This document shows positions 4,994 to 34,089 of a stretch of 64,000 nt of DNA, one piece after another; position 1 is the first letter of the stretch; each line of letters starts with the position of its first letter. The position numbers and the translations under genes were made by a program. This DNA comes from Gammaproteobacteria bacterium (lineage in GTDB: Bacteria; Pseudomonadota; Gammaproteobacteria; Burkholderiales; SG8-39): NCBI GenBank assembly GCA_041496745.1, contig JBGQFF010000001.1, forward strand, positions 16,675 through 80,674, read 5' to 3'. The notes below the pieces were generated by a model, which saw nothing but the letters and a program-made list of their open reading frames with translations, was not told where the DNA came from and did not search any database.

Positions 4994-5459
4994 GTTCTGC
5001 CCCGCGTGTGCGGCGCCGCTCGCGGTGCGGGCAGGGGACGCGCGCCTTGGCTGCGCCGCCTGCGGCTACGTGCACTGGGACAACCCGGTGCCGGTGGTGG
5101 CGGCGATCGTCGAGCATGAGGGCGAGGTGATCCTCGCCCGCAACAAGGCCTGGCCGGAAAAGATGTACGGCCTGGTCGCCGGTTTCCTGGAAAAGGACGA
5201 AGCGCCGCAGGAGGGCGTGAAGCGCGAGGTGAAGGAGGAACTGGACCTCGACGCGAGCGCCGCGCACCTCGTCGGGCTCTACCCCTTCGCCCGCCGCAAC
5301 GAACTCATAATTGCCTACCATGTCCCGGCCACCGGCACGGTGCGGCTGAACGAGGAACTGGCCGACTACCGGCGCATCCCGCCGGAGAAGCTCCGGCCCT
5401 GGGATTTCGGCACCGGCTTGGCAGTGGCGGACTGGTTGAAGAGGAGAGCCGCGTCGTGA
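4977..5459 (+). CDS. NUDIX hydrolase with N-terminal zinc ribbon
   Basis: It contains CPACAAPL...CAACG and the Nudix box [23 protein letters not shown]. The TTG start overlaps the alaS end. Confidence 0.85.
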
Positions 5460-5800
5460 GAACTGTGGCATTCCTTGCCGCATTCGTATTGGTTGCGGCA
5501 CCGGGTTTGGCGCACCACGGCTGGAGCCAATACGACTCCTCCAGGATGCTGAAGCTCACCGGCAAGATCAGCGCATCCGGCTACGAGCACCCGCACGGCT
5601 ACGTGAAGCTCCAGGCGCCTGGCAAGACCTGGCTGTGCGTGCTCGCGCCGCCTTCGCGCATGCGGAACCGCGGCCTGGCGAAGGACATGCTCAAGCCCGG
5701 CACCGCGGCGACGCTCGAGGGCTACCCCAACCGCAACAAGCCCGCGGAGATGCGCGCCGAGCGCATCACGATCGGCGGCAAGACTGTCGAACTGAGGTAA
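5456..5800 (+). CDS. Small secreted protein (DUF6152-like); the predicted mature N-terminus is His-His
   Basis: The signal peptide [19 protein letters not shown] is followed by HHGWSQYD. A GTGA overlap links it to the NUDIX stop. Confidence 0.65.
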   Translation: MRTVAFLAAFVLVAAPGLAHHGWSQYDSSRMLKLTGKISASGYEHPHGYVKLQAPGKTWLCVLAPPSRMRNRGLAKDMLKPGTAATLEGYPNRNKPAEMRAERITIGGKTVELR

Positions 5801-5803
5801 GCC

Positions 5804-6280
5804 GTGACTCCCTTGGGCGCCATCGAGATGAGCGCCCTCGGCGTGGCGATGCGCCAGTCGCTGTGGCTGTACCCGATCGTAGAGATCGTGCACCTCACGG
5901 GCATCGCGCTGCTGGTCGGCTCGATCGCCATGCTCGATCTGCGCCTGCTGGGACTGTCGCGCTCGGTGCCGGTGCGGCGCCTCGCGTCCCACATCCTGCC
6001 GTGGACCGCGGCCAGCTTCCTGCTGATCGTGCCGAGCGGCCTCGCCATGTTCGTGGCGCACGCCGGGGACTTCATCGCCAGCCCGGTGTTCGTGCTGAAG
6101 ATCTGCCTGATCCTCGCCGCCGGGACGAACGCGGCGGTGTTCCACGCCGGCGTGTTCCGTGGGGCGGCGGACTGGGATGTGAACCGCCCGCCGCCCGCCG
6201 CGGCGCGCGTGTCGGCGGCGCTGTCGCTGCTGCTGTGGGTCTCGGTGATCGCCTGCGGGCGGCTGCTGGCCTATACCTAG
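5804..6280 (+). CDS. Integral membrane protein, function unknown
   Basis: The 158-aa ORF has 4-5 hydrophobic spans (LWLYPIVEIVHLTGIALLVGSIAML, ASFLLIVPSGLAMFV, FVLKICLILAAG, ALSLLLWVSVIACG). It starts 4 nt after the preceding stop. Confidence 0.6.
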   Translation: MTPLGAIEMSALGVAMRQSLWLYPIVEIVHLTGIALLVGSIAMLDLRLLGLSRSVPVRRLASHILPWTAASFLLIVPSGLAMFVAHAGDFIASPVFVLKICLILAAGTNAAVFHAGVFRGAADWDVNRPPPAAARVSAALSLLLWVSVIACGRLLAYT

Positions 6281-7332
6281 AAGCCGATGCGCGCCTTCCG
6301 GGCGCGCCCGTCCCGCACGTCTTCGGGCCGCAGCTCCCCGCGCCCGGCGAGCTTGGCGTTGCCGAACGCGGCCAGCGTTGCGCGCCGCATCTCCCGGGGC
6401 GAGAGTTCGGCGAGTTTCTCCACCACCGCCGTGCGCGGCGCCTCGGGAAAGCCCTTGCCCCAGTCGTGCGCGCCGCGGATCTCGCGGTAGATGGACAGCG
6501 CGATGCGCGCCGCGCCCTCGGCGTCCGGCGCTTCGATCTCGTAGACGTGCATGCGGTTGAGGATCGGTTCGGGGATGCGCGCGGCGTCGTTGGCGGTGGC
6601 GAACCACACCGCGCCGGAGGCGTCGATCGGGATCTCGGCGAACTCGTCGACGAAGCGCGTCGCGGTGTCCACCTCGAGCAGGCTGTACAGGGCACCGAGC
6701 GGGTCGTACTGGCCCTCCGCGCTCGCCTTGTCGATCTCGTCCACCACCATCACCGGGTTGGCGTAGTCGCCGTTGAGGAAGGTGTCGAACACCTTGCCCG
6801 GCTTGGCGTTCTTCCATTGCGAGGAGGCGCCGCTCAGGATCCAGCCGGCGGTGAGCGAGCTCATCGGCACGAAGCCGTAGCCGGTGCCGAGCAACTGCGC
6901 GATGCGCCGCGCGAAGTGCGTCTTGCCGATGCCCGGTTCACCCAGCAGCAGTATCGGCGGCAGCTCGACGGCGTCCTCGGAATCGATGCACAGCGCCAAC
7001 TGCTTGCGCATGTCCTCGAGCACAGCGCCGAAATTGGGCAGCTCGTCGAACAACTGGTCCATCGCCGGCATGGCGGAGGGCTTGACGGTGAAGCGCTGGC
7101 CGCCGACGCGCAGCATCTTGTCGTAGAGCGCACGCAGCGCCTCGTTCGCGCCGGGAGGGAGTTCCTGCAGCGCCTTTTCCACGGCCGGAACGTCGTAGAC
7201 GTCCTTGAAACCCGCAATCGGAATAGTCACGAGTGAAAACGCTAACAGACGCAGCAAGGCGAAGCAAATCCGGGAGGCCGCATTCTGGCAGTCCGCGGCG
7301 CCGAGTGCCAGATGCGCGCCGTGTAGGCGCAT
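6277..7332 (-). CDS. AAA+ ATPase (Lon-like ATPase module with no protease domain)
   Basis: It has Walker A LLLGEPGIGKTHFA, Walker B VMVVDEIDKAS, and sensor region PEPILNRMHVYEIEAP. The start is uncertain: ATG 7332 or GTG 7230 (VTIPIAGFKD). Confidence 0.8.
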   Translation of the reverse strand: MRLHGAHLALGAADCQNAASRICFALLRLLAFSLVTIPIAGFKDVYDVPAVEKALQELPPGANEALRALYDKMLRVGGQRFTVKPSAMPAMDQLFDELPNFGAVLEDMRKQLALCIDSEDAVELPPILLLGEPGIGKTHFARRIAQLLGTGYGFVPMSSLTAGWILSGASSQWKNAKPGKVFDTFLNGDYANPVMVVDEIDKASAEGQYDPLGALYSLLEVDTATRFVDEFAEIPIDASGAVWFATANDAARIPEPILNRMHVYEIEAPDAEGAARIALSIYREIRGAHDWGKGFPEAPRTAVVEKLAELSPREMRRATLAAFGNAKLAGRGELRPEDVRDGRARKARIGF

Positions 7333-7368
7333 TTGCCTTGCCCCGGGAGTTCATGCTTGAATGCCGGC

Positions 7369-7434
7369 ATGACCCGCTGGTACTTCGGCTATTTTTTCCA
7401 CTTCCCGCGCCCTCTGGCGGAGGGGAACGGCTAG
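7369..7434 (+). CDS. Putative aromatic-amino-acid leader peptide MTRWYFGYFFHFPRPLAEGNG
   Basis: This 21-codon ORF has 7 of 9 consecutive codons encoding W/Y/F (TGG TAC TTC GGC TAT TTT TTC CAC TTC). It lies 77 nt upstream of the DAHP synthase start and just 5' of a terminator hairpin. Confidence 0.6.
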   Translation: MTRWYFGYFFHFPRPLAEGNG

Positions 7435-7459
7435 CCGCACTTCCAGCGAAACCGAGAAA

Positions 7460-7493
7460 CCGCCAGAGCAGAGATGCCTGGCGGTTTTTTTTT
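7460..7493 (+). terminator. Rho-independent terminator/attenuator in the aroG leader
   Basis: The stem CCGCCAG(A)GCA / TGCCTGGCGG has a GAGA loop (7460-7484) and is followed by nine T (7485-7493). The left arm CCGCCAGAG (7460-7468) is also perfectly complementary to CTCTGGCGG (7412-7420) inside the leader ORF. Confidence 0.65.
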
Positions 7494-7510
7494 GACCTGA
7501 GGCCCACACC

Positions 7511-8629
7511 ATGACCGCGCCCACCGACTCCTTTCTCGGCCCCGTGCCCGCCGACAAGACTTCGCTCACCGACGACGAGCGCATCGAGAACATCGTCCCG
7601 CTGCCGCCGCCGGAGCACCTGATCCGCTTCTTCCCGATCCAGGGCACGCCGGTGGAAACGCTGATCGCCGAGACGCGGCGCCGCATCCGCGCCATCCTGC
7701 ACGGCAAGTCCGACCGCCTGCTGGTGGTGATGGGCCCGTGCTCGATCCACGACCCGGCCGCGGCGGTGGAGTACGCCGGGCGCCTCGCCGCCGAGCGCCG
7801 CCTGCACGAGGGCGAGCTGGAAATCCTGATGCGCGTGTATTTCGAGAAGCCGCGCACCACGGTGGGCTGGAAGGGGCTGATCAACGATCCCTACCTCAAC
7901 GGCAGTTACCGCATCAACGAGGGGCTGCGCATCGCGCGCGACCTGCTGGTGCGCATCAACCAGGCCGGCGTGCCCGCGGGCTGCGAGTTCCTCGACGTGA
8001 TCTCGCCACAATACATGGGCGACCTGGTGTCCTGGGGCGCGATCGGGGCGCGCACCACCGAGTCGCAGGTGCACCGCGAGCTGGCCTCCGGCCTGTCGGC
8101 GCCGGTCGGCTTCAAGAACGGCACCGACGGCAACGTGAGGATCGCCGTGGACGCGATCCTCGCCGCCAGCCAGAAGCACCATTTCCTTTCGGTGCACAAG
8201 ACCGGGCAGGTGGCGATCGTGCAGACGCGCGGCAACGACGACTGCCACATCATCCTGCGCGGCGGCAAATCGCCGAACTACGACGCGGCGAGCGTCGCCG
8301 CCGCCTGCGCCGAGCTCGTCAAGGCCAAGCTGCCCGAGCGCCTGATGATCGACTGCTCGCACGCCAACGCCGCCAAGCAGTTCAAGCGCCAGCTGGACGT
8401 GGCGCGCGACGTCGCGGCGCAGATCACGGGCGGCGAGCGGCGCATCGTCGGCACGATGGTCGAATCGCACCTGGTGGAGGGGCGCCAGGAGCTGACCCCG
8501 GGCAAGCCGCTGCAGTACGGCCAGAGCGTCACCGATGCCTGCCTCGGATGGAAGGACTCGCTGGAGGTGCTGGAGACGCTGGCCGGTGCGGTGAAGGAGC
8601 GGCGCAGCGCCGGCAAGAGCAGACGCTGA
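7511..8629 (+). CDS. aroG: 3-deoxy-7-phosphoheptulonate (DAHP) synthase, class I
   Basis: Conserved blocks include LLVVMGPCSIHDP, MRVYFEKPRTTVGWKGLINDP, WGAIGARTTESQVHRELASGLS and PVGFKNGTDG. The isoenzyme type is not assignable from sequence alone. Confidence 0.95.
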   Translation: MTAPTDSFLGPVPADKTSLTDDERIENIVPLPPPEHLIRFFPIQGTPVETLIAETRRRIRAILHGKSDRLLVVMGPCSIHDPAAAVEYAGRLAAERRLHEGELEILMRVYFEKPRTTVGWKGLINDPYLNGSYRINEGLRIARDLLVRINQAGVPAGCEFLDVISPQYMGDLVSWGAIGARTTESQVHRELASGLSAPVGFKNGTDGNVRIAVDAILAASQKHHFLSVHKTGQVAIVQTRGNDDCHIILRGGKSPNYDAASVAAACAELVKAKLPERLMIDCSHANAAKQFKRQLDVARDVAAQITGGERRIVGTMVESHLVEGRQELTPGKPLQYGQSVTDACLGWKDSLEVLETLAGAVKERRSAGKSRR

Positions 8630-8651
8630 GGCAGTCGTTAGAATCGCTGCC

Positions 8652-10124
8652 GTGGCCACTCTGACGCCGCGGCAGTGGTTCGCGTTCGCGCTCGCCGCGA
8701 CGCTCGCGTTCCGCTTCTGGCTCGCCGCCGTGCTGCCGATCACCGGCGACGAGGCCTATTTCATCCTGTGGGGGCGCTACCCCGACATCGGCTTCTACGA
8801 TCATCCGCCGATGGTCGGCTGGCTGTTGGCGCCGCTGCTGCGCATCTCCGAGGCGCCCTGGGTCCTGCGGCTGCCGGTGTTGCTGCTGCCGGTGCTGGTC
8901 GCGCTCCTCGTGCGCCATGCGCTGCGCTTCTGGTTCGGCCGCGACGCCGACACCGCGGACCTGGCGGCGATCGCGGTGCTGCTGGTGCCGCTGAACGTAT
9001 GGAACGTGCTGATCACCACCGACACGCCGCTGGCGCTGTTTTCGGTGGCCTCGCTGCTGGCGTTCGCGCGCGGGAGATTCCTGCTCGCCGGCGCGCTGCT
9101 CGGCCTTGCGTTCCTGTCCAAGTACCTCGCCGTGCTGCTGGGCCTTGCCTACCTCGCCTGGGCGCTGGCGTCGCGGCGCCCCGGGGCGTTCGCCCTGGTA
9201 TTCGCCGGCGCGCTGCCCTTCGGGCTGCTCAACCTGTACTGGAACTGGCAGGCCTGCTGGTGCAACGTGATGTTCAACGCCGTCAACCGGCACGACGACG
9301 CCGGGCTGTCCTGGACCACCCCGGCGCTGTACGCGGCCTCGCTCGCCTATCTTGCGGCGCCGCTCCTGTGGTTCGCGTGGCGCGAGCGCGGAAAGCTGCG
9401 CGCTGCGCTCGCGCATCCCGGCGAAGGCGCGCTGCTCGCCGCCTGGCTGGTGCCGCTGCTCGTGTTTGCTCTGCTCTCGCCGGTGCGGCGTATCGGGTTG
9501 CACTGGCTGCTGTCCTTCATTCCCGCCATGATCCTCAGCGTGGCGCTGGCGCTCGAGCGCCGGGCGCTGGTCATCACCGCGCGCTGGTTCGCCGGCTTCG
9601 CCGTGCTGCACGCGGTGGTGCTCGCGGCCCTGGTGGCCATGCCGCTCGAGACCTGGAAGTCCACGCGGATTTACCGGAACCTCGTCATGCTGGCGGACCC
9701 GGGCGCCGTGCTGCTTCCGCTGGCGCCCCTGATGGAAGGCGCCACGCTCGCCTACGAGAGCTATTCCATGGCGGCGGTGCTCTCGTTCCACACCAAGCGT
9801 GTCGTGCCGGTATTCGGGCCCGGCTCCTCGCACGCGCGGCACGACGACATTCTCACCGACTGGCGCAGCCAGCAGGGACGCGACCTGCTGATCCTGGGCC
9901 GCGACGAGCCGCGGCTGCAGAACTACCGGCCGTATTTCCGCACCGTGGAAACGCACCGTACCGAGGCGCGCGGCGCGACTTATCACGCGGTGCTCGGCCG
10001 CGGCTTCGATTACGCCGCCTACCGCGAGGGCGTACTGAAGTCCGTGCGCGAGCGCTGGTACCGCATTCCGCCGGCGCTGCCGGTGGGTCGCTGCTACTTT
10101 TTCGAGCGCTACGGCTTGCAGTGA
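8652..10124 (+). CDS. GT-C fold glycosyltransferase, family 39 / ArnT-PMT-like (polyprenyl-phosphate-sugar dependent)
   Basis: This is a 490-aa polytopic membrane protein. Its N-terminal motif LPITGDEAYFILWGRYPDIGFYDHPPMVGW is typical of ArnT/PMT-family enzymes. Confidence 0.85.
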   Translation: MATLTPRQWFAFALAATLAFRFWLAAVLPITGDEAYFILWGRYPDIGFYDHPPMVGWLLAPLLRISEAPWVLRLPVLLLPVLVALLVRHALRFWFGRDADTADLAAIAVLLVPLNVWNVLITTDTPLALFSVASLLAFARGRFLLAGALLGLAFLSKYLAVLLGLAYLAWALASRRPGAFALVFAGALPFGLLNLYWNWQACWCNVMFNAVNRHDDAGLSWTTPALYAASLAYLAAPLLWFAWRERGKLRAALAHPGEGALLAAWLVPLLVFALLSPVRRIGLHWLLSFIPAMILSVALALERRALVITARWFAGFAVLHAVVLAALVAMPLETWKSTRIYRNLVMLADPGAVLLPLAPLMEGATLAYESYSMAAVLSFHTKRVVPVFGPGSSHARHDDILTDWRSQQGRDLLILGRDEPRLQNYRPYFRTVETHRTEARGATYHAVLGRGFDYAAYREGVLKSVRERWYRIPPALPVGRCYFFERYGLQ

Positions 10125-10990
10125 CCGCGCGCGACATCGTCCAGCTGCTGCGCCCGCACCACTGGGTGAAGAACGGCTTCGTGCTGGCCGGATTGCTGTT
10201 CGGCCACGCGCGGGATGAGCCCGGCACCGTCGCGGCGGCGCTGCTCGCCACCCTGGCCTTCTGCCTCGCTTCGAGCGCGGTGTATGCGTTCAACGACGCG
10301 CTTGACGCGGAGCGCGATCGCGAGCACCCGGACAAGAACGGCCGGCCGGTGGCGCGCGGCGCCGTTTCGGCGGCCGCCGCGCTCGGCATCGCCGCGGTGC
10401 TCTCGACCGCGGCGCTCGGCATCGCTGCCTGGACCGGCTGGCAGGTGGCGGCCACCGCCGGCGCCTACCTCGCGCTCAACGCCGCCTACAGCCTGGGACT
10501 GAAGCACGTCCCGGTGCTCGACGTGTTCGCCATCGCCGCGGGCTTCATGCTGCGGCTGCTCGCCGGCACCTGGGGCATCGGCATCGAGCCCTCGCGCTGG
10601 CTGCTCGCCTGCGGTTTCCTGCTCACGCTGTTCCTCGGCTTCGCCAAGCGCCGCGCGGAGCTCGAGCGCCTCGCGCACGGCGCCGGCCAGCATCGCGCGG
10701 TGCTCGAGTCCTACAGCCTGGCGTTCCTCGACAAGGCGGTGTTCGCCTGCGTCGTCGGCATGGTGGTCAGCTACGGCCTGTACACGGTGTCGGCCGAAAC
10801 CGTCGCGCTGCACGGCACGGAGAACCTGATCTGGACGCTGCCCTGGGTGCTGCTCGGCAGCTTCCGTTATCTTTTCCGCCTGCACTACCGCGGCGGCGGC
10901 GGCGATCCCACGCAGGAGCTGCTGCGCGACCCGCTGCTCGCGGCGTCGGCGCTGGGCTGGGTGGCCACGGTGGTATGGCTGATCGGCTAG
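10121..10990 (+). CDS. UbiA-family prenyltransferase resembling decaprenyl-phosphate phosphoribosyltransferase (DPPR synthase)
   Basis: The GTG start overlaps the upstream stop (GTGA). It carries LLRPHHWVKNGFVLAGLLF and the NDALDAERDREHPDKNGRPVARG motif characteristic of the DPPR-synthase branch of UbiA. It is the C-terminal part of the artefactual ORF 8675-10990. Confidence 0.85.
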   Translation: MTARDIVQLLRPHHWVKNGFVLAGLLFGHARDEPGTVAAALLATLAFCLASSAVYAFNDALDAERDREHPDKNGRPVARGAVSAAAALGIAAVLSTAALGIAAWTGWQVAATAGAYLALNAAYSLGLKHVPVLDVFAIAAGFMLRLLAGTWGIGIEPSRWLLACGFLLTLFLGFAKRRAELERLAHGAGQHRAVLESYSLAFLDKAVFACVVGMVVSYGLYTVSAETVALHGTENLIWTLPWVLLGSFRYLFRLHYRGGGGDPTQELLRDPLLAASALGWVATVVWLIG

Positions 10991-11559
10991 AATTCCCCGC
11001 ACCCCTCCACGCCGCCATGGCCGACCGTCCCCAGCAGCTCGCGCACCTCGAATACCTCGGCGACGCCGCCCGCTTCGCCGGCCAGATCCACGCGTTGATT
11101 CCGAAGTGCTCGCTGCTGGAGAACTTCACCCCGGCGGAAGTGCGCCTGCTGACGCATTTCATGCAGGTGTACCGCGCGGCCGTGGGAATGGAAGTCATCC
11201 GCGAGGGCGACGGCGGCGATTTCATGCTCATCGTGGTCGAGGGCCGCGTCGAGGTGCGCAAGCAGGACCGCTGGAACACGCCGCAGCCGATCGCGGTGGT
11301 GGAGCCCGGCCGCGCCCTGGGCGAGATGTCGATGATCGACGGCGAGGCGCGCTTCGCCACCTGCGTGGCAGTCGAGCCGCTGCTGGTGGCGGCGCTGGAC
11401 CGCGAGAGCCTGGCGCGCATCATCGTCGAGCACCCGCTGCTCGGCGCCAAGATCCTGATGGAGCTGGTGCTGATGCTGTCGCAGCGGCTGCGTGCCACCA
11501 GCGACCGCCTGATGCAGCTGCTCGAGGAGCAGGGCCAGAGCAGCGCCGGCCTGCTGTAA
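10975..11559 (+). CDS. Stand-alone cyclic-nucleotide-binding domain protein (no output domain)
   Basis: CAP-effector-domain pattern: FMLIVVEGRVEVRK...GRALGEMSMIDGEARFATCVA. The alternative start is ATG 11017. Confidence 0.85.
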   Translation: MADRLEFPAPLHAAMADRPQQLAHLEYLGDAARFAGQIHALIPKCSLLENFTPAEVRLLTHFMQVYRAAVGMEVIREGDGGDFMLIVVEGRVEVRKQDRWNTPQPIAVVEPGRALGEMSMIDGEARFATCVAVEPLLVAALDRESLARIIVEHPLLGAKILMELVLMLSQRLRATSDRLMQLLEEQGQSSAGLL

Positions 11560-11590
11560 GCCGCGCGCGGCCCGCTGCGCCCCATCCCGC

Positions 11591-13726
11591 GTGAGCCGCT
11601 CACGCCTCCTCGTCCTTGCCGTCATCGCCGTGCTGGTGGCGGTGTTCTTCGCCCTCGGCGGCCACCGCTACCTGACGCTCGAGCAGCTGCGCGCGCATCA
11701 GGCGGGCGTGCAGCAGTACTACGCGTCGCATCCGTGGCAGGCGGCGCTCGGCTATTTCCTCGTCTACGTCACCGTCACCGGGCTGTCGCTGCCCGGGGCG
11801 ACCGTGCTGACGCTCTTCGGCGGCGCCGTATTCGGCCTGCTGTGGGCCACGGTGATCGTTTCCTTCGCTTCGTCCATCGGCGCGACGCTGGCGTTCCTGG
11901 TGTCGCGGTTCCTCCTGCGCGACTGGGTGCAGGGGCGCTTCGGCGACAAGCTGAAGCCGCTCAACGACGGCGTGGCGAAGGAGGGGGCGTTCTACCTGTT
12001 CGCGCTGCGCCTGGTGCCGGCGTTCCCGTTTTTCGTGATCAACCTGGTGATGGGCCTGACGCCGATCCGCACATGGACTTTCTATTGGGTGAGCCAGACA
12101 GGCATGCTCGCCGGGACCCTCGTGTATGTGTACGCCGGAACGCAGCTCAGCGAGTTCAGGCTTTCCGCCGGGCTGGTGATCGCCTTCACTTTGCTCGGGC
12201 TGTTTCCCCTGGTCGCAAAGAGGGTGTTGGCGGCGCTCAAGGCCCGTCGCGTCTACGCCAAGTGGCCGAGGCCGGCGAAGTTCGACCGCAACCTGGTGGT
12301 GATCGGCGCGGGCTCGGCGGGCCTGGTTTCGGCTTACATCGCCGCGGCGGTGAAGGCCAAGGTGACGCTCGTCGAGAAGCACCGCATGGGCGGCGATTGC
12401 CTGAACACCGGCTGCGTGCCCTCGAAGGCGCTGATCAAGACGGCGCGGGTGCTCTCGACCATCCGGCGGGCGAAGGAGTACGGGCTCAAGTCTGCAAGTG
12501 CGGAATTCGACTTTGGCGAGGTGATGGAGCGGGTGCAGCGGGTCATTGCGCAGATCGAGCCCCATGACTCCGTCGATCGCTACAGTGCAATGGGCGTCGA
12601 ATGCGTCCACGGCGAAGCAAAAATCGCTTCGCCGTGGATCGTGGAAATTCAAAAGCAGGACGGGTCGAAAACAGCGCTGACCACTCGGTCAATAATCATC
12701 GCTGCCGGCGCGCGCCCCTTCGTGCCACCGATCCCCGGCATCGAGCTGGCCGGCTACTACACCTCCGACACGCTGTGGGAGATGCGCGAGCTGCCGCGGC
12801 GCCTGGTGGTGCTGGGCGGCGGGCCGATCGGCTGCGAGCTGGCGCAGGCATTCGCGCGCTTCGGCGCGCAGGTGACGCAAGTCGAGATGCTGCCGCGGCT
12901 GCTCATGCGCGAGGACCCGGAGATCGCGGCGATGGTGGAGAGGCGCTTCCGCGAGGAGGGCGTGGACGTGCGCACCGGGCACCGGGCGAAGGAGTTCCGC
13001 GTCGAGGACGGGCACAAGGTGCTGCTCTGCGAGCACCAGGGGCGCGACCTGGCGATCGAGTTCGATGCGCTGCTGGTGGCGGTGGGGCGGATCGCGAACA
13101 CCGCGGGCTACGGGCTGGAGGAGCTGGGCATCCCGGTGACCAAGGCGCGTACCGTGGAAACCAACGAGTTCCTGCAGACCCTCTACCCGAACATCTATGC
13201 CTGCGGCGATGTCGCCGGGCCGTTCCAGTTCACCCACACCGCCGCGCACCAGGCCTGGTATGCCGCGGTGAACGGGCTGTTCGGCGACCTGAAGAGATTC
13301 CGCGCCGATTACTCGGTGATCCCCTGGGCGACGTTCACCGACCCCGAGGTGGCGCGCGTGGGCCTGAACGAAACCGACGCGAAGGACCAGGGCGTCGCCT
13401 ACGAAGTCTCGACCTATGGCATAGACGATCTGGATCGCGCCATCGCCGACGAGGAGGCGCACGGCGTGGTCAAGGTGCTGACCGTGCCGGGCAAGGACCG
13501 CATCCTCGGCGTGACCATCGCCGGGGAGCACGCGGGCGACCTGATCGCCGAGTTCGTCGCCGCCATGCGCCACGGCATCGGGCTGAACAAGATCCTCGGC
13601 ACGATCCACATCTATCCCACGCTGGCCGAGGCGAACAAGTACGCCGCCGGGGTGTGGAAGAAGGCGCACGCGCCGCAGCGCGTGCTGCACTACGTCGAGA
13701 GGTTCCACGCATGGATGCGGGGATGA
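11591..13726 (+). CDS. Fusion protein: N-terminal DedA/TVP38-TMEM64 membrane domain plus C-terminal FAD/NAD(P) pyridine-nucleotide-disulfide oxidoreductase
   Basis: Residues ~1-215 are polytopic (GATVLTLFGGAVFG, LVPAFPFFVINLVMGLT). The rest has GAGSAGLVSAY, the redox-active pair GGDCLNTGCVPSK, GGGPIGCE and the C-terminal dimerisation domain of the mercuric reductase / dihydrolipoamide dehydrogenase family. Confidence 0.9.
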   Translation: MSRSRLLVLAVIAVLVAVFFALGGHRYLTLEQLRAHQAGVQQYYASHPWQAALGYFLVYVTVTGLSLPGATVLTLFGGAVFGLLWATVIVSFASSIGATLAFLVSRFLLRDWVQGRFGDKLKPLNDGVAKEGAFYLFALRLVPAFPFFVINLVMGLTPIRTWTFYWVSQTGMLAGTLVYVYAGTQLSEFRLSAGLVIAFTLLGLFPLVAKRVLAALKARRVYAKWPRPAKFDRNLVVIGAGSAGLVSAYIAAAVKAKVTLVEKHRMGGDCLNTGCVPSKALIKTARVLSTIRRAKEYGLKSASAEFDFGEVMERVQRVIAQIEPHDSVDRYSAMGVECVHGEAKIASPWIVEIQKQDGSKTALTTRSIIIAAGARPFVPPIPGIELAGYYTSDTLWEMRELPRRLVVLGGGPIGCELAQAFARFGAQVTQVEMLPRLLMREDPEIAAMVERRFREEGVDVRTGHRAKEFRVEDGHKVLLCEHQGRDLAIEFDALLVAVGRIANTAGYGLEELGIPVTKARTVETNEFLQTLYPNIYACGDVAGPFQFTHTAAHQAWYAAVNGLFGDLKRFRADYSVIPWATFTDPEVARVGLNETDAKDQGVAYEVSTYGIDDLDRAIADEEAHGVVKVLTVPGKDRILGVTIAGEHAGDLIAEFVAAMRHGIGLNKILGTIHIYPTLAEANKYAAGVWKKAHAPQRVLHYVERFHAWMRG

Positions 13727-14391
13727 GCCGGCGGCTGTCGGTGATCGTCCCGGCGCTGAACGAGGCGCGGGGCATCGAAGACTGCCTGCGCTCGCTCGCG
13801 CCGCTGCGCGCGCGCGGCCACGAGGTGATCGTGGCGGACGGCGGCAGCGGGGACGGCACGCGCGAGCTGGCGGCGGCCCTCGCCGACCGGGTGATCTCGG
13901 CGCCGCGCGGCCGTGCCCTGCAGATGAATGCCGGTGCCGCGGCTGCGTCGGGGGACGCGTTGCTGTTCCTGCATGCCGACACGATCCTGCCGGCGGACGC
14001 CGACCGCGCGGTCCTTGCGGCGCTCGCCTCGCGCGCCTGGGGCCGGTTCGACGTGTCGATCGATTCGCGCGATGCGCGGCTGGCGGTGGTCGGGTTCTGC
14101 ATGAACTGGCGCTCGCGCCTGAGCGGCATCGCCACCGGCGACCAGGCGATCTTCGTGCGCCGCGCCGCGTTTCCGGGCTTCGCGCGGATCGCGCTGATGG
14201 AGGACGTGGAATTCAGCAAGCGCATGAAACCGGTTTCGGCCCCCGCGTGCCTGCGCGCGCGGGTGGTGACCTCGGCGCGGCGCTGGGAGCGCCGCGGCGT
14301 GCTGCGCACCGTGCTCCGCATGTGGCGGCTGCGGCTGCAGTTCTGGCTGGGCGCCGATCCCGATGAGCTGGCGCGCCGATACCCGCACTAG
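13723..14391 (+). CDS. Family-2 glycosyltransferase (resembles TIGR04283, 'transferase 2, rSAM/selenodomain-associated')
   Basis: An ATGA overlap links it to the upstream stop. It reads LSVIVPALNEARGIEDCLRSL...VIVADGGSGDGT...LLFLHADT. It is the C-terminal part of the artefactual ORF 12601-14391. Confidence 0.85.
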   Translation: MSRRLSVIVPALNEARGIEDCLRSLAPLRARGHEVIVADGGSGDGTRELAAALADRVISAPRGRALQMNAGAAAASGDALLFLHADTILPADADRAVLAALASRAWGRFDVSIDSRDARLAVVGFCMNWRSRLSGIATGDQAIFVRRAAFPGFARIALMEDVEFSKRMKPVSAPACLRARVVTSARRWERRGVLRTVLRMWRLRLQFWLGADPDELARRYPH

Positions 14392-14941
14392 GGTCATCGT
14401 CTTCGCGCGCGCGCCGCGCGCGGGGCGCGTGAAGACGCGGCTCATTCCCCTGCTGGGCGAGCAGGGCGCGGCGCGCCTGCACGCGCGGCTGCTGCGCCGC
14501 GCGCTGCGCGCCGCGCGCGAAGCGCGTCTGGGCGCGGTGGAACTGTGGACCGCGGAGCGCGAGCAGCGCGGCGCCGATCTCGGCGCGCGCATGCATCACG
14601 CTTTCGCGCGCAGCCTGCGCCGCGCGCCGCGCGTCGTGCTGATCGGCTCCGATTGCCCGGTGCTGCGCGGCGCCGATCTGCGTCAGGCCGCGCGCTGGCT
14701 CGCGGGCGGCGCCGACGCGGTGTTCGCGCCAGCGGAGGATGGAGGCTATGCGCTCATCGCGCTGCGGCGTGTGTCGCCCCGGCTGTTCGAAGGGGTGGAG
14801 TGGGGCGGCGCGCGGGTGATGGCGCAGACGCGCGCGCGCCTTGCGTTGCTCGGCTGGCGCTGGCGTGAGCTGCCCGAGGTGTGGGACGTGGACCGGCCGG
14901 AGGACTACCGGCGGCTAGAGCGCTCCGGACTTCTTCAGTAG
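14363..14941 (+). CDS. DUF2064 family transferase (resembles TIGR04282, 'transferase 1, rSAM/selenodomain-associated')
   Basis: It reads VIVFARAPRAGRVKTRL...VLIGSDCPVL...FAPAEDGGYALIAL. It overlaps the preceding gene by 29 nt. Confidence 0.85.
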   Translation: MSWRADTRTRVIVFARAPRAGRVKTRLIPLLGEQGAARLHARLLRRALRAAREARLGAVELWTAEREQRGADLGARMHHAFARSLRRAPRVVLIGSDCPVLRGADLRQAARWLAGGADAVFAPAEDGGYALIALRRVSPRLFEGVEWGGARVMAQTRARLALLGWRWRELPEVWDVDRPEDYRRLERSGLLQ

Positions 14942-15541
14942 CTCCGCCACCCGTTCCGCGATCAGGCGGTAGCCGCGCGCGTTCGGATGGATGGGGTCCG
15001 ACTTGAGCTCGGAGTTGCGCAGGATCTCGCCGATCACCTTGCCTTCGTAGGGGACGCCGAACTCCTTGGCGATCTCCGCGTATAACTTCGGCGGCGTCAC
15101 GAGGAGCCCCTTCGCCGGCGCGCCGATCAGCAGCACGTCGCTGCCCTTGCCTTTCGCCATGGCGATCATGCGGCGCAGGTTGGCGGCCGCCTCGGCCTGG
15201 CTCAGGTTGCGCAGGAAGTCGTTGCCGCCGATGCACAGCACGAGCAACTGCGGCTGGTGCTCCTCGAGCGCCGTGGGCAGGCGCGCAAGCGCCTGCGCGC
15301 TCACTTCCCCGGGTACGCCCGCGCGCACCACCCTGCGCCCGATCATGCGCTCGAGCTGGGCCGGGTAGCTGTCCGCTTCCGCCGCGCCGGTGCCGTAAGT
15401 GAGGCTGTCGCCGAAAGCGAGCACCACCGCGTTGGGCGCGAGACGCGCGAGCTTCGGCGCGTCGCCGCAGCCCGCGAGGGCGAGCGCCGCGACGCATAAC
15501 AGCGCAAGCCGCCAGGCTGACAAGGGCGCAAGAGTGCGCAT
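14915..15541 (-). CDS. SGNH/GDSL-type esterase lipoprotein (TesA/arylesterase-like)
   Basis: Lipobox LALAGC, block I FGDSLTYG, block III GGNDF, and the C-terminal DPIHPN catalytic motif are all present. Confidence 0.85.
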   Translation of the reverse strand: MRTLAPLSAWRLALLCVAALALAGCGDAPKLARLAPNAVVLAFGDSLTYGTGAAEADSYPAQLERMIGRRVVRAGVPGEVSAQALARLPTALEEHQPQLLVLCIGGNDFLRNLSQAEAAANLRRMIAMAKGKGSDVLLIGAPAKGLLVTPPKLYAEIAKEFGVPYEGKVIGEILRNSELKSDPIHPNARGYRLIAERVAELLKKSGAL

Positions 15542-15627
15542 CGGCGTGCATGCTACACTTGCCTCGAGACAAGGCCAGCGGCGCGGGGGGGCATCGCGAG
15601 CGTCGCGACAAGAGCTGGAGGAGACCG

Positions 15628-16296
15628 ATGATCATCAGAAATCCGAAGGACTTCTGGGCCGGGCTCATGTTCGTCACTATCGGGCTGGCGTTCGTCGTCA
15701 TCGCCGCCGGATCCCCCGAGTTCCTCGACAGGCTTTTCGGCGCGAAAGTGGTACCCGGCTACCAGATGGGCGGCGCGGTGCGCATGGGACCCGCCTACTT
15801 CCCGGTGGTGCTCGGCGGCTTGCTGGCGGTGCTCGGCGCGATCGTCCTGCTCCGCTCCTTCGCCTCGCACCTGACGGGCAATGCGGTGCGCGTGGAACTG
15901 CCGTTCAACATCGTCGACCTGGCGATCGGGATCGGCGTATTCGCAGTGCTGCTGGCGTACAGCGGCCATCTGATGCTTTCCGCGGACAACGCGATGCTGG
16001 TGGCGGCGCTCGTGGTGTCGGCGCTGTCGATCAAGTTCCGTCCGCATGCCAAGCCGCTGGTGCTGCTTCTCGCGGGCTGCCTCGCCTTCGCCTACACGCT
16101 CAAGCCCCTCGGCCTGATCGGTGCGACGCTGCTGCTGGTGTTCATCAGCGCCTTCGGCGGCCACGAGTTCAAGTGGAAGGAAGTGACGGTCCTGTACGTC
16201 GTGCTGATCATTTTCTCGGTGCTGGTGTTCGTGAAAGGGCTGACGCTGCCCTTCGCGATCTGCCCCGCGTTGATCGAAGACTACTGCCGCTTCTAA
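15628..16296 (+). CDS. tctB: Tripartite tricarboxylate transporter small membrane subunit TctB
   Basis: An SD GGAGGAG precedes ATG 15628. The protein (MIIRNPKDFWAGLMFVTIGLAFVV) is hydrophobic and lies immediately upstream of tctA. The track ORF starts earlier, at 15550. Confidence 0.8.
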   Translation: MIIRNPKDFWAGLMFVTIGLAFVVIAAGSPEFLDRLFGAKVVPGYQMGGAVRMGPAYFPVVLGGLLAVLGAIVLLRSFASHLTGNAVRVELPFNIVDLAIGIGVFAVLLAYSGHLMLSADNAMLVAALVVSALSIKFRPHAKPLVLLLAGCLAFAYTLKPLGLIGATLLLVFISAFGGHEFKWKEVTVLYVVLIIFSVLVFVKGLTLPFAICPALIEDYCRF

Positions 16297-34023: not shown

Positions 34024-34089
34024 CCATGACGGCGACCCCGACATTGACCGCGCGATTTGCGTCATGATGTCCGTCCAGGGAGGTACGCA

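What the first reader, a model, noticed from the sequence alone, without database searches (positions are those of the whole stretch)
8652..14941. Six-gene translationally coupled operon that looks like an uncharacterised polyprenyl-phosphate-linked glycosylation pathway
The gene order is as follows: an ArnT/PMT-like GT-C transferase, a UbiA-family enzyme of the decaprenyl-phosphate phosphoribosyltransferase type, a stand-alone cNMP-binding protein, a DedA-flavoprotein fusion, a GT2 (TIGR04283-like), and a DUF2064 transferase (TIGR04282-like). Start and stop codons overlap at 10121-10124 (GTGA), at 13723-13726 (ATGA) and over 14363-14391. GT-C enzymes use lipid-phosphate sugar donors on the periplasmic face. 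In mycobacteria the DPPR-synthase branch of UbiA makes polyprenyl-phospho-ribose, the arabinan donor precursor. DedA-superfamily proteins have been implicated in polyprenyl-phosphate translocation and recycling. The set therefore covers donor synthesis, flipping and periplasmic transfer, yet no acceptor or product is evident. From memory, the TIGR04282/TIGR04283 pair was defined by association with a radical-SAM/selenodomain enzyme (arsenosugar-type context). That partner is absent from this window, so the pair is in a different context here.
Basis: partly seen in the sequence, partly recalled or inferred. Interest (0 to 1): 0.65.

Follow-up and report, generated by a model that had tools for sequence, protein, structure and literature searches.

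The report
Two glycosylation modules joined in one operon
The six genes are real and tightly packed, but they are two separate gene sets lying side by side: a membrane system that probably adds a five-carbon sugar to something outside the cell membrane, and a cut-down 'arsenosugar-type' cluster that has lost its key arsenic enzyme yet is still kept.

Summary
Six co-directional genes lie at 8652-14941, all six family assignments are right, and the quoted overlaps are present.

Synteny in 80 related Betaproteobacteria genomes assembled from metagenomes (MAGs) shows two evolutionary modules.

Module A is the GT-C transferase plus a UbiA enzyme of the decaprenyl-phosphate phosphoribosyltransferase type, usually with the cNMP-binding protein. 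It always follows aroG and occurs without the other genes in about 22 loci. In a Gallionella MAG the orthologous pair brackets a DprE1 homolog, a short-chain dehydrogenase and a HAD phosphatase. That identifies it as a polyprenyl-phosphate pentofuranose system of the kind described by Kelly et al. 2024.

Module B is the DedA-flavoprotein fusion, TIGR04283 and TIGR04282. It is the known ArsS-associated cluster. In 17 relatives ArsS plus an unknown 333-aa protein sit exactly at the window's 31-nt cNMP/DedA gap, and DUF547 sits at the flavoprotein/GT2 junction. The same cluster occurs in Burkholderia plasmids and a Cupriavidus plasmid record, with an MTA phosphorylase and no GT-C or UbiA.

ArsS was lost at least three times, while the three retained genes stay under purifying selection. 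Acceptor and product remain unknown.

An integrated pathway like mycobacterial methylthioxylose capping remains possible but is unproven.

The parts
7511..8629 (+). aroG (DAHP synthase). A flanking housekeeping gene that ends 22 nt before the GT-C start. It lies upstream of GT-C and UbiA in every related locus that extends that far, except the Gallionella locus L068.
   Evidence: TIGR00034 531 bits and NF006723 546 bits. Synteny. Sequence.
8652..10124 (+). Module A: GT-C fold glycosyltransferase (PMT_2 type, 490 aa) with a C-terminal periplasmic beta-rich domain. [quoted passage not shown]
   Evidence: PF13231 57 bits. AlphaFold2 model with pLDDT 76.7; best PDB match is ArnT 5ezm, E 5.8e-6, TM 0.59. 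D33 and E34 are invariant in 73 sequences. dN/dS 0.24-0.57.
10121..10990 (+). Module A: UbiA-superfamily polyprenyl-phosphate 5-phosphoribosyltransferase homolog (289 aa). Its GTG start overlaps the GT-C stop (GTGA).
   Evidence: NF008977 244 bits against a cutoff of 234. Rv3806c structure 8j8j, E 9e-34, residues 5-284. N58, D59, D62, D66, K176, R177 and E180 are invariant.
10975..11559 (+). Stand-alone cyclic-nucleotide-binding protein (194 aa from the ATG at 10975; 180 aa if it starts at 11017). It follows UbiA in most but not all relatives.
   Evidence: PF00027 58 bits. Absent in L049, L065, L069, L071, L072, L074 and L075. Alternative start from the gene calls on L085.
11560..11590 (.). 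The 31-nt intergenic gap that is the boundary between the modules. In 17 related loci ArsS and an unknown 333-aa protein ('X333', about 2 kb together) occupy this position.
   Evidence: No ArsS, X333 or DUF547 anywhere in the 64-kb window (tblastn).
11591..13726 (+). Module B: fusion of a DedA/VTT membrane domain (about aa 70-184) with a class I pyridine-nucleotide-disulfide flavoprotein (about aa 234-685). It has the CLNTGC redox motif and lacks the C-terminal cysteine pair that I recall, from my own knowledge, as characteristic of MerA.
   Evidence: PF09335 79 bits, PF07992 225 bits, PF02852 101 bits. NF004991 503 bits, below its cutoff of 620. The two halves are separate adjacent genes in Cupriavidus. 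dN/dS 0.10-0.42.
13723..14391 (+). Module B: TIGR04283 GT2 (GT-A fold, 222 aa). Its ATG overlaps the upstream stop (ATGA). DUF547 sits at this junction in 20 related loci.
   Evidence: TIGR04283 260 bits against a cutoff of 182. AlphaFold2 model with pLDDT 90.3; generic GT2 matches only. DUF547.
14363..14941 (+). Module B: TIGR04282 / DUF2064, a CofC-like or MobA-like nucleotidyltransferase-fold protein (192 aa). It overlaps the GT2 by 29 nt.
   Evidence: TIGR04282 184 bits against a cutoff of 134, PF09837 95 bits. PDB 3cgx, E 4e-18.
14915..15541 (-). Convergent GDSL lipase. It marks the downstream boundary with a 27-nt tail-to-tail overlap with DUF2064.
   Evidence: PF13472 90 bits. Sequence.

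Best explanation
The block is a composite of two modules that one lineage of uncultured Burkholderiales inherited side by side.

Module A is the GT-C, the UbiA and, loosely, the cNMP-binding protein. It is a polyprenyl-phosphate pentofuranose glycosylation system.
- The UbiA enzyme transfers ribose-5-phosphate from PRPP to the cell's polyprenyl phosphate on the cytoplasmic face.
- A phosphatase not encoded in the locus removes the 5-phosphate.
- The lipid-linked ribofuranose reaches the periplasmic face.
- The ArnT-like GT-C transfers the sugar to an unidentified periplasmic acceptor.
- No epimerase is present, so the sugar is most likely ribofuranose.

Module B is the DedA-flavoprotein fusion, the TIGR04283 GT2 and the TIGR04282 nucleotidyltransferase-fold protein. 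It is a reduced form of the ArsS-associated ('arsenosugar-type') cluster.
- In the full form, ArsS makes a 5'-substituted 5'-deoxyadenosine.
- A phosphorylase (MTAP, present in the cultured Burkholderiaceae clusters) releases the sugar-1-phosphate.
- TIGR04282 activates it with a nucleotide.
- TIGR04283 transfers it to an acceptor.
- In the window's lineage ArsS and its partner were deleted. The remaining enzymes presumably act on an arsenic-free 5'-deoxyadenosine-type metabolite.

Shown here: the gene families, the two-module distribution, repeated ArsS loss, and purifying selection. Inferred: every enzymatic step, the donor sugar, and the acceptor.
For: Module A as an independent unit:
- aroG, GT-C and UbiA (with or without cNMP) occur with no module B in about 22 loci that hold at least 4 kb of sequence after UbiA. 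In six of these cNMP is followed directly by TctB/TctA.
- The Gallionella locus L068 has the order GT-C (45% identity), DprE1 homolog (E 3e-97 to solved DprE1), short-chain dehydrogenase, HAD phosphatase (123 bits), UbiA (49% identity), LPG_synthase_TM.
- The UbiA passes the DPPRS cutoff, aligns with 8j8j, and its catalytic residues are invariant.
- The GT-C model's best structural match is ArnT.
- The pathway logic comes from Kelly et al. 2024, PMC11127046.

Module B as an independent unit:
- ArsS (456 bits), X333 and DUF547 are interleaved with these genes in 17 relatives.
- B. glumae plasmid bglu_2p carries ArsS, an X333 homolog (48% identity), MTAP (455 bits), TIGR04283, TIGR04282 and the DedA-flavoprotein fusion. 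No GT-C or UbiA lies within 9 kb of the GT2 match.
- The Cupriavidus KK10 plasmid record carries ArsS, the flavoprotein, DedA, GT2, DUF2064, MTAP and DUF547.
- A Thiodictyon plasmid carries GT2, ArsS and TIGR04282.
- The ArsS reaction, DMAs(III) to 5'-deoxy-5'-dimethylarsinoyladenosine, is described in PMC13598754.

Evolution:
- A neighbour-joining tree of GT-C plus UbiA places module B in one clade. ArsS-containing forms make up its earliest branches. ArsS and X333 were lost together at least three times, and the DedA fusion, GT2 and DUF2064 were never lost.
- dN/dS is 0.10-0.49 for the module B genes, including comparisons among ArsS-less genomes. This is similar to aroG and TctA.
Against: - Within the clade that has both modules, they are never separated. 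The genes are tightly packed, with no convincing internal terminator, so co-transcription and functional coupling cannot be excluded.
- Module A lacks its own phosphatase and flippase in this locus, so something else must supply them.
- One MAG (L010) has a clean UbiA deletion but keeps GT-C next to module B.
- Two loci in the clade that otherwise lacks module B (L062, L066) have GT2 and DUF2064 about 6 kb downstream of GT-C, UbiA and cNMP, without ArsS or DedA.
- No biochemical data exist for any of these proteins.
- The adjacency most likely stems from a single ancestral event, so it argues neither for nor against coupling.
Confidence: 0.6

Rival explanations
1. The genes form one integrated pathway. 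It would work like mycobacterial methylthioxylose (MTX) capping.
- A 5'-substituted 5'-deoxyadenosine is phosphorolysed. The substituent would be dimethylarsinoyl where ArsS is present, and methylthio or hydrogen where it is absent.
- TIGR04282 activates the resulting sugar-1-phosphate with a nucleotide.
- The TIGR04283 GT2 transfers it to polyprenyl phosphate.
- The lipid-linked sugar is flipped, possibly by the DedA domain.
- The neighbouring GT-C delivers it to a periplasmic acceptor.
- UbiA supplies a parallel ribofuranose donor for the same GT-C.
For: - In M. tuberculosis the GT2 MtxS (Rv0539) makes decaprenyl-P-MTX and the GT-C MtxT (Rv0541c) transfers it (PMC8780516 and PMC12088412).
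- Kelly et al. state that the MTX route starts from 5'-methylthioadenosine.
- MTAP lies directly beside TIGR04283 and TIGR04282 in B. glumae and Cupriavidus.
- A TIGR04282 member (153 bits against a cutoff of 134) lies next to a GT-C-like protein and a GalE-like epimerase in the actinomycete Nonomuraea, with no ArsS within 9 kb.
- Module B is never lost next to GT-C and UbiA within its clade, whereas ArsS is lost repeatedly.
- L010 keeps GT-C without UbiA.
- L062 and L066 have GT2 and DUF2064 near GT-C and UbiA.
Against: - ArsS-type clusters in cultured Burkholderiaceae and in Thiodictyon have no GT-C within 9 kb of the match.
- GT-C and UbiA function without module B in many lineages.
- The fold search of the GT2 model gives only generic GT2 matches (WrtF, GpgS, ArnC, PcManGT). 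It does not show a polyprenyl-phosphate acceptor.
- No MTAP and no epimerase occur in the window or in L001-L080.
- The DedA domain is probably of the scramblase-related COG0398 type.
- Homology of these proteins to Rv0539, Rv0540 and Rv0541c could not be tested. The role of Rv0540 rests on my memory only.
Confidence: 0.25
2. Module B is a decaying relic in the window. After ArsS was deleted, the DedA-flavoprotein fusion, GT2 and DUF2064 have no function and persist only because too little time has passed.
For: - ArsS, X333 and DUF547 are all missing from the 64-kb window.
- DUF547 is variably lost among relatives.
Against: - All three ORFs are intact and score well above their family cutoffs.
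- dN/dS is 0.10-0.39 even between ArsS-less genomes.
- Three independent ArsS-less lineages all keep the three genes.
- Synonymous divergence among ArsS-less relatives is 0.37-0.72 for these genes, which leaves ample time for decay.
Confidence: 0.05
3. GT-C and UbiA are not a pentofuranose system. The UbiA would be an aromatic or other prenyltransferase. The GT-C would be an ArnT-type lipid A aminoarabinose transferase, or a protein mannosyltransferase, using a hexose or aminopentose donor made elsewhere.
For: - The GT-C model's best structural match is ArnT.
- JGI names its homologs '4-amino-4-deoxy-L-arabinose transferase-like'.
- LpxK and KdsB lie 9-10 kb downstream.
Against: - Quinone, heme and chlorophyll prenyltransferase models score 15-37 bits, against 244 bits for DPPRS.
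- The pair is strictly co-inherited in the loci where both regions are readable, with L010 as the single exception.
- A DprE1 homolog, a short-chain dehydrogenase and a HAD phosphatase lie between the orthologs in L068.
- The GT-C has no significant match to any NCBIfam model; its only hit is NF046093 at E 0.004.
- It shares only 17% identity with ArnT.
Confidence: 0.05

Closest known systems
Three-component extracytoplasmic pentofuranose glycosylation systems (Citrobacter youngae O1/O2 ORF15 PPPRS-PRP, ORF14 MATE flippase, ORF12 GT-C/GT136; Kelly et al. 2024, PMC11127046)
   Same: - A UbiA-type polyprenyl-phosphate phosphoribosyltransferase is paired with a GT-C.
- The UbiA shows the same conserved N/D motif and loop IV R/E residues.
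- The GT-C resembles ArnT and has an acidic residue pair right after the first transmembrane helix.
- Optional epimerases diversify the sugar; DprE1-like and short-chain dehydrogenase genes are present in the Gallionella ortholog.
   Different: - There is no fused or adjacent phosphoribose phosphatase in the window; a HAD gene occurs only in L068.
- No MATE or SMR/GtrA flippase gene was found among the genes identified here.
- The GT-C is a PMT_2-type protein. GT136 membership was not shown.
- The locus is not inside an O-antigen or capsule cluster. It lies between aroG and a GDSL lipase and Tct transporter genes.
- The acceptor is unknown.
Mycobacterial decaprenyl-phospho-arabinose pathway (Rv3806c DPPRS, Rv3807c, DprE1/DprE2, Emb/Aft GT-C enzymes)
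   Same: - The UbiA aligns over its full length with the Rv3806c structure 8j8j (E 9e-34).
- The Gallionella ortholog locus has a strong DprE1 homolog (E 3e-97) and a short-chain dehydrogenase.
   Different: - The window has no DprE1/DprE2, so ribofuranose rather than arabinofuranose is expected.
- The GT-C is small (490 aa) and ArnT-like, not Emb- or Aft-like.
- The host is a Gram-negative bacterium.
ArsS-associated 'arsenosugar biosynthesis' cluster (TIGR04167 ArsS, TIGR04282, TIGR04283), for example on Burkholderia glumae BGR1 plasmid bglu_2p
   Same: - TIGR04283 and TIGR04282 score above their cutoffs.
- The DedA-flavoprotein fusion is 49-61% identical to the fusion in that cluster.
- Orthologous loci carry ArsS, X333 and DUF547 in the same block.
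   Different: - The window lacks ArsS, X333, DUF547 and MTAP.
- It lies next to a GT-C and PPPRS pair, which the cultured Burkholderiaceae clusters lack.
Methylthioxylose capping of lipoarabinomannan in M. tuberculosis (MtxS Rv0539 GT2, MtxT Rv0541c GT-C)
   Same: A small GT2, a GT-C and (from my memory) a nucleotidyltransferase-like protein act on a sugar derived from a 5'-substituted adenosine, through a polyprenyl-phosphate-linked donor.
   Different: - Homology to the mycobacterial proteins was not tested here.
- No MTAP or epimerase is present in the window.
- In the wider family the GT2/DUF2064 pair is linked to ArsS rather than to a GT-C.
ArnT/ArnC lipid A aminoarabinose modification
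   Same: - The fold of the GT-C: ArnT 5ezm is its best structural match, TM 0.59.
- The general logic of a lipid-phosphate sugar donor used on the periplasmic face.
   Different: - Sequence identity is 17%, and the GT-C has no significant NCBIfam match.
- There is no arn operon context.
- The donor-forming enzyme is a PRPP-type UbiA rather than an ArnC-type GT2.

Membership tests
Polyprenyl-phosphate 5-phosphoribosyltransferase (DPPRS/PPPRS branch of UbiA) | Scores above the curated cutoff of a DPPRS equivalog model, and far above quinone, heme and chlorophyll prenyltransferase models | tested here: met
   NF008977 244.1 bits against a cutoff of 234. Heme o synthase, UbiA, MqnP and ChlG models score 15-37 bits.
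Polyprenyl-phosphate 5-phosphoribosyltransferase (DPPRS/PPPRS branch of UbiA) | Loop II NDxxDxxxD motif and loop IV R/E residues, which are required in Rv3806c and ORF15 | tested here: met
   N58, D59, D62, D66, K176, R177 and E180 are invariant in 73 orthologs. Full-length alignment with 8j8j. Residue roles are from PMC11127046.
Polyprenyl-phosphate 5-phosphoribosyltransferase (DPPRS/PPPRS branch of UbiA) | PRPP-dependent transfer of ribose-5-phosphate to a polyprenyl phosphate | not testable with these tools
   Needs a membrane assay with PRPP and farnesyl or undecaprenyl phosphate.
Three-component pentofuranose glycosylation system (Kelly et al. 2024) | PPPRS and a GT-C encoded together | tested here: met
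   The two genes overlap by 4 nt in the window. They are adjacent in essentially all related loci.
Three-component pentofuranose glycosylation system (Kelly et al. 2024) | A phosphoribose phosphatase (fused PRP/HAD domain or a separate enzyme) | tested here: not met
   The six genes and their flanks contain no HAD or PAP2 domain. A HAD gene is present only in the Gallionella ortholog locus.
Three-component pentofuranose glycosylation system (Kelly et al. 2024) | A dedicated flippase (MATE, or SMR/GtrA type) | tested here: not met
   No MATE, SMR or GtrA family appeared among the proteins of the window that were scanned. The only candidate is the DedA domain, which travels with module B.
Three-component pentofuranose glycosylation system (Kelly et al. 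2024) | GT-C of the GT136 family | tested here: inconclusive
   The fold is GT-C and ArnT-like, as described for ORF12. No GT136 sequence or model was available for comparison. Pfam assigns PMT_2.
ArsS-associated 'arsenosugar' cluster | TIGR04283 and TIGR04282 proteins encoded together | tested here: met
   260 bits against a cutoff of 182, and 184 bits against a cutoff of 134. The two genes overlap by 29 nt.
ArsS-associated 'arsenosugar' cluster | Radical SAM enzyme ArsS (TIGR04167) in the cluster | tested here: not met
   tblastn with ArsS from L021 finds nothing in the 64-kb window (best E 1.7). ArsS is present at the equivalent position in 17 related loci. The rest of the genome could not be searched.
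ArsS-associated 'arsenosugar' cluster | Production of an arsenic-containing riboside | not testable with these tools
   Needs arsenic speciation analysis of a culture or a heterologous host.
MTX-type lipid-linked 5-deoxy-pentofuranose pathway (Mtb MtxS/MtxT) | The GT2 transfers the sugar to polyprenyl phosphate | tested here: inconclusive
   The AlphaFold2 model (pLDDT 90.3) matches many GT2 enzymes with different acceptors, including WrtF, GpgS, PcManGT and ArnC. Sequence hits to DPMS and ArnC are weak.
MTX-type lipid-linked 5-deoxy-pentofuranose pathway (Mtb MtxS/MtxT) | Homology of the GT2, DUF2064 and GT-C proteins to Rv0539, Rv0540 and Rv0541c | not tested
   No M. tuberculosis sequences were reachable.
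MTX-type lipid-linked 5-deoxy-pentofuranose pathway (Mtb MtxS/MtxT) | MTA phosphorylase and a sugar epimerase in the cluster | tested here: not met
   No MTAP hit in the window or in L001-L080. No epimerase among the six genes.
DedA-family undecaprenyl-phosphate flippases (COG0586, UptA type) | Membership of the COG0586 subfamily | tested here: inconclusive
   Pfam gives only the general VTT domain. NCBI names the B. glumae homolog 'TVP38/TMEM64 family'. PMC10127716 states that fusions to PF07992/PF02852 belong to COG0398, not COG0586. I did not make a direct COG assignment.
ArnT (GT83) lipid A aminoarabinose transferase | Sequence-level family membership and arn operon context | tested here: not met
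   The GT-C has no significant NCBIfam match; its only hit is NF046093 at E 0.004. No PDB sequence hit at E<=1. Identity to 5ezm is 17%. No arnBCADEF-type genes are adjacent.

The most novel reading that the evidence does not exclude
The GT2 and DUF2064 pair, currently named 'arsenosugar biosynthesis glycosyltransferases', may really be a general machine. It would convert 5'-substituted 5'-deoxyadenosines (DDMAA from ArsS, MTA, or 5'-deoxyadenosine) into polyprenyl-phosphate-linked 5-deoxy-pentofuranoses.

In this Burkholderiales lineage the product would feed the neighbouring ArnT-like GT-C, alongside the PRPP-derived ribofuranose donor. The cell would then decorate a periplasmic or outer-membrane glycan with 5-modified pentofuranoses.

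That would be a Gram-negative counterpart of mycobacterial methylthioxylose capping. In the ArsS-containing relatives it would imply arsenosugar-decorated envelope glycans.
Probability: 0.2. Interest if true: 0.8.

Novelty: new variant of a known kind. Interest (0 to 1): 0.5.

Why it matters
- The GT-C and PPPRS pair extends the recently defined lipid-linked pentofuranose glycosylation strategy to a large group of uncultured freshwater and soil Betaproteobacteria. The scan found 397 species-level genomes that encode a GT-C relative. The pair sits in a housekeeping chromosomal position and its target is unknown, so an undescribed envelope modification is likely.
- ArsS was lost repeatedly while TIGR04282, TIGR04283 and the DedA-flavoprotein fusion were kept under purifying selection. 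These proteins therefore have an ArsS-independent role, and automatic annotation as 'arsenosugar biosynthesis' is probably too narrow.
- MTAP lies beside these genes in cultured Burkholderia and Cupriavidus, which gives a concrete and testable substrate logic.
- Kelly et al. 2024 explicitly left open whether an MTX-type route exists outside lipoarabinomannan. This locus, together with the culturable Burkholderia and Cupriavidus clusters, offers a place to test that.

Tried and rejected
- A sequence search of the GT-C against the PDB found nothing at E<=1. The fold had to come from an AlphaFold2 model.
- A fold search of the GT2 model was meant to tell a polyprenyl-phosphate acceptor from a soluble one. 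It returned only generic GT2 matches and was uninformative.
- The promoter scan found no sigma-70-like site in 7200-15700. The ten terminator-like hits (3.7 expected) have weak 5-6 bp stems. They lie mostly inside genes, and none marks an intergenic gap within the six-gene block. Operon structure is therefore inferred from spacing only.
- I tried to read Angala et al. 2017 (PMC5357196), Angala et al. 2018 (PMC5831173) and Xue et al. 2019 (PMC6467767). None is held. A text search for Rv0540 found nothing. The proposed roles of Rv0540, Rv0535 and Rv0536 therefore rest on my memory.
- Searches for 'TIGR04282', 'TIGR04283' and 'DUF2064' in the paper library found nothing functional.
- X333 has no Pfam, NCBIfam or PDB sequence match.
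- The Nonomuraea locus lacks a GT2 and an MTAP within 9 kb, so it is only weak support for a link between DUF2064 and GT-C.
- I considered and rejected two readings: the upstream aroG as a functional member (it is a housekeeping DAHP synthase whose synteny is best explained by conserved gene order), and the flavoprotein as MerA (I see no C-terminal cysteine pair, which I recall as characteristic of MerA, and the MerA model scores 380 bits against a cutoff of 454).

Full report
**1. The observation**

The six ORFs exist as described, on the + strand. Third-position GC is 0.88-0.92 for the four genes whose longest ORF coincides with the gene. The translations are uninterrupted.

- GT-C: PMT_2, 57 bits.
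- UbiA: the NCBIfam equivalog NF008977 'decaprenyl-phosphate phosphoribosyltransferase' scores 244 bits against a cutoff of 234. Heme, quinone and chlorophyll prenyltransferase models score only 15-37 bits.
- cNMP_binding: 58 bits.
- DedA-flavoprotein fusion: a VTT/DedA domain fused to Pyr_redox_2 and Pyr_redox_dim.
- GT2: TIGR04283, 260 bits against 182.
- DUF2064: TIGR04282, 184 bits against 134.

The junctions read as claimed: GTGA at 10121-10124, ATGA at 13723-13726, and a 29-nt overlap at 14363-14391.

Some start codons are uncertain. Independent gene calls were available on an NCBI contig (GCA_041495685.1, locus L085) whose GT2 product is identical to the window's and whose gene layout matches it.
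- They start the cNMP gene at window 11017, which leaves a 26-nt gap instead of a 16-nt overlap.
- They start the DedA fusion at 11630.
- They start the GT2 at 13711.

The block is bounded upstream by aroG, which ends 22 nt before the GT-C start on the same strand. Downstream it is bounded by a convergent GDSL lipase that overlaps DUF2064 tail to tail by 27 nt.

The surrounding 64 kb is core chromosome. It holds recA, alaS, xseA, mutL, an H+-pyrophosphatase, lpxK and kdsB.

**2. Comparative genomics splits the block in two**

A scan of one genome per GTDB species with the GT-C found 397 encoded relatives. The best 80 loci are all Betaproteobacteria MAGs of Burkholderiales, Rhodocyclaceae, Nitrosovibrio and Gallionella type, at 45-83% identity.

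I ran tblastn with all window proteins against these loci.
- GT-C and UbiA are together in every locus long enough to tell. The single exception is L010, where UbiA is cleanly deleted.
- aroG lies just upstream in every locus that reaches that far, except the Gallionella locus L068.
- The cNMP gene follows UbiA in most loci but not all.
- The DedA-flavoprotein fusion, GT2 and DUF2064 are present in only about half of the loci.
- About 22 loci with at least 4 kb of sequence after UbiA have none of those three. In six of them cNMP runs straight into TctB/TctA.

In 17 loci there is an extra 2 kb between cNMP and the DedA fusion.
- It encodes ArsS (TIGR04167, 456 bits against a cutoff of 300; DUF3641 184 bits).
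- It also encodes an unknown 333-aa protein that I call X333.

In 20 loci a DUF547 gene sits between the flavoprotein and the GT2.

The window has no ArsS, X333 or DUF547 anywhere in its 64 kb.

A neighbour-joining tree of concatenated GT-C and UbiA gives the evolutionary picture.
- All loci that contain module B fall in one clade.
- The earliest-branching lineages of that clade carry the full set: ArsS, X333, DedA-flavoprotein, usually DUF547, GT2 and DUF2064.
- ArsS and X333 disappear together in at least three separate sub-clades, one of which contains the window.
- The DedA fusion, GT2 and DUF2064 are never lost.

**3. Module B is the known ArsS-associated cluster**

Protein-level searches of annotated plasmid records found the same gene set in several cultured or named organisms.
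- Burkholderia glumae and B. thailandensis plasmids carry it. On bglu_2p the set is ArsS, an X333 homolog (48% identity), a thioredoxin, CcdA, an MTA phosphorylase (NF005657, 455 bits), TIGR04283, TIGR04282 and a 'bifunctional TVP38/TMEM64 family protein/FAD-dependent oxidoreductase'.
- The Cupriavidus sp. KK10 plasmid record p1 (1.67 Mb) has the order ArsS, flavoprotein, DedA, GT2, DUF2064, MTAP, DUF547. Here the flavoprotein and DedA are two separate adjacent genes.
- A Thiodictyon plasmid has GT2, ArsS and TIGR04282.

None of these has a GT-C or a UbiA within 9 kb of the match.

The missing partner is a recent deletion from the canonical context, not evidence of a new context.

The retained genes are not decaying.
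- Pairwise dN/dS (NG86 method) is 0.10-0.42 for the flavoprotein, 0.16-0.38 for DedA, 0.26-0.49 for the GT2 and 0.21-0.46 for DUF2064.
- This includes comparisons among ArsS-less genomes, and is comparable with aroG (0.15-0.36) and TctA.
- Caveat: the extreme GC3 bias compresses dS, so the ratios are probably overestimates.

**4. Module A is a lipid-linked pentofuranose system**

- The UbiA aligns over residues 5-284 with the Rv3806c DPPRS structure 8j8j (E 9e-34).
- N58, D59, D62, D66, K176, R177 and E180 correspond to the residues Kelly et al. mutated in ORF15. They are invariant in 73 orthologs.
- The GT-C model has pLDDT 76.7 and pTM 0.78. Its best solved match is ArnT 5ezm (E 5.8e-6, TM 0.59), followed by ALG9, PimE and EmbB/EmbC.
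- D33 and E34, directly after the first transmembrane helix, are invariant.

The most telling evidence comes from the Gallionella MAG locus L068. Its gene order is:
- GT-C (45% identity);
- a DprE1 homolog (E 3e-97, full length, against solved DprE1);
- a short-chain dehydrogenase of DprE2 size;
- a HAD phosphatase (PF12710, 123 bits);
- UbiA (49% identity);
- an LPG_synthase_TM protein.

This is a complete set for making and using a polyprenyl-P-arabinofuranose donor. It matches the 'three-component' pathway of Kelly et al. 2024 (PMC11127046), which consists of a PPPRS, a phosphatase, optional epimerases, a flippase and a GT-C.

The window's version has only the PPPRS and the GT-C. No epimerase is present, so ribofuranose is the expected sugar. 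No phosphatase and no recognisable flippase are encoded in the locus. No acceptor can be inferred from the neighbourhood.

**5. Are the two modules coupled?**

This remains open.

Points in favour of coupling:
- Within their shared clade the modules are never separated, while ArsS, X333 and DUF547 are lost freely.
- L010 keeps the GT-C next to module B after a clean UbiA deletion.
- L062 and L066, which lie in the clade that otherwise lacks module B, carry GT2 and DUF2064 about 6 kb downstream of GT-C, UbiA and cNMP. A histidine kinase and a receiver-cyclase-kinase protein lie in between.
- A TIGR04282 member lies next to a GT-C-like protein and a GalE-like epimerase in the actinomycete Nonomuraea, with no ArsS within 9 kb.
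- There is a known precedent in M. tuberculosis. The GT2 MtxS makes decaprenyl-P-methylthioxylose and the GT-C MtxT transfers it (PMC8780516 and PMC12088412). The sugar originates from 5'-methylthioadenosine.
- MTAP sits beside TIGR04283 and TIGR04282 in Burkholderia and Cupriavidus. This fits the same chemistry: phosphorolysis of a 5'-substituted adenosine, then nucleotide activation by the CofC-like TIGR04282 (PDB 3cgx, E 4e-18), then GT2 transfer.
- ArsS itself makes such an adenosine, 5'-deoxy-5'-dimethylarsinoyladenosine (PMC13598754).

Points against coupling:
- Each module exists widely without the other.
- The adjacency is explained by one ancestral event.
- The GT2 model gives no acceptor information.
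- The DedA domain is probably of the scramblase-related COG0398 subfamily, not the undecaprenyl-phosphate flippase subfamily (PMC10127716).
- Homology to the mycobacterial MTX proteins could not be tested. The roles of Rv0540, Rv0535 and Rv0536 are from my memory only.

**6. Verdict**

My best explanation, at confidence about 0.6, is two modules inherited side by side.
- One is a PRPP-fed, lipid-linked ribofuranose glycosylation pair.
- The other is an ArsS-less derivative of the ArsS-type cluster, which still does something useful.

The integrated, MTX-like reading has a probability of about 0.2-0.25. It is the interesting possibility.

On novelty, module A is a new member of a known kind. 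The combination with, and the repeated ArsS loss from, module B make the whole a new variant of a known kind. I score interest at about 0.5. Nothing here is outside known enzyme logic. However, the target glycan is unknown, the 'arsenosugar' annotation is shown to be too narrow, and an open question raised in the 2024 literature becomes testable.

Noticed in passing
window 7511-8651; L001-L080: aroG (DAHP synthase) lies immediately upstream of GT-C and UbiA in every related locus that reaches that far, except the Gallionella locus L068. This holds from 47% to 83% GT-C identity. The gap in the window is 22 nt. It may be shared transcription or only conserved gene order.
   Followed up: partly
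L021 12984-13985; L081 61-1080 (B. glumae WP_012732796.1): An unknown protein of about 335 aa ('X333') always accompanies ArsS, including on the B. glumae plasmid (48% identity). It is lost together with ArsS at least three times. It has no Pfam, NCBIfam or PDB sequence match. It is a likely unrecognised partner of ArsS.
   Followed up: partly
L068 4127-10365 (Gallionella MAG JBGSMU010000033.1): This is a complete arabinofuranose-type locus: GT-C, a DprE1 homolog, a short-chain dehydrogenase, a HAD phosphatase, UbiA and an LPG_synthase_TM protein. The last one resembles the MprF flippase domain and may be the flippase.
   Followed up: partly
L010 1880-1960: UbiA is cleanly deleted; about 45 nt remain between the GT-C stop and the cNMP gene. 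GT-C and module B are intact. This could be a real deletion or a MAG assembly artefact.
   Followed up: partly
L062 12578-20322; L066: Downstream of the cNMP-binding gene lie a PAS histidine kinase and a receiver / guanylate-cyclase / Ser-Thr-kinase protein. GT2 and DUF2064 follow, without ArsS or DedA. This hints that cyclic-nucleotide signalling controls the locus.
   Followed up: no
L082 6813-8956 (Cupriavidus sp. KK10 plasmid p1): The flavoprotein and the DedA domain are separate adjacent genes in the opposite order to the fusion. MTAP follows DUF2064. This supports a functional link between the two halves of the fusion.
   Followed up: partly
window 56449-59127: An 892-aa ORF combines an MFS-like membrane region with a spermidine-synthase-like domain. 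Enzymes of that family release 5'-methylthioadenosine.
   Followed up: no
window 34057-35733: A 558-aa ORF with strong coding bias (GC3 0.93) has no Pfam match at E<=1e-5.
   Followed up: no
window 39941-43195: A 1084-aa protein has an N-terminal AAA/NPHP3_N NTPase region and a C-terminal BTAD transcriptional activator domain.
   Followed up: no
window 23939-25779: lpxK and kdsB (lipid A 4'-kinase and CMP-Kdo synthetase) lie 9-10 kb downstream of the cluster, after exbB and exbD. No link to the cluster was shown.
   Followed up: no
window 5456-6280: Two small genes of unknown function (DUF6152 and DUF6644) lie between a NUDIX hydrolase gene and a divergent AAA ATPase gene, upstream of aroG.
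   Followed up: no
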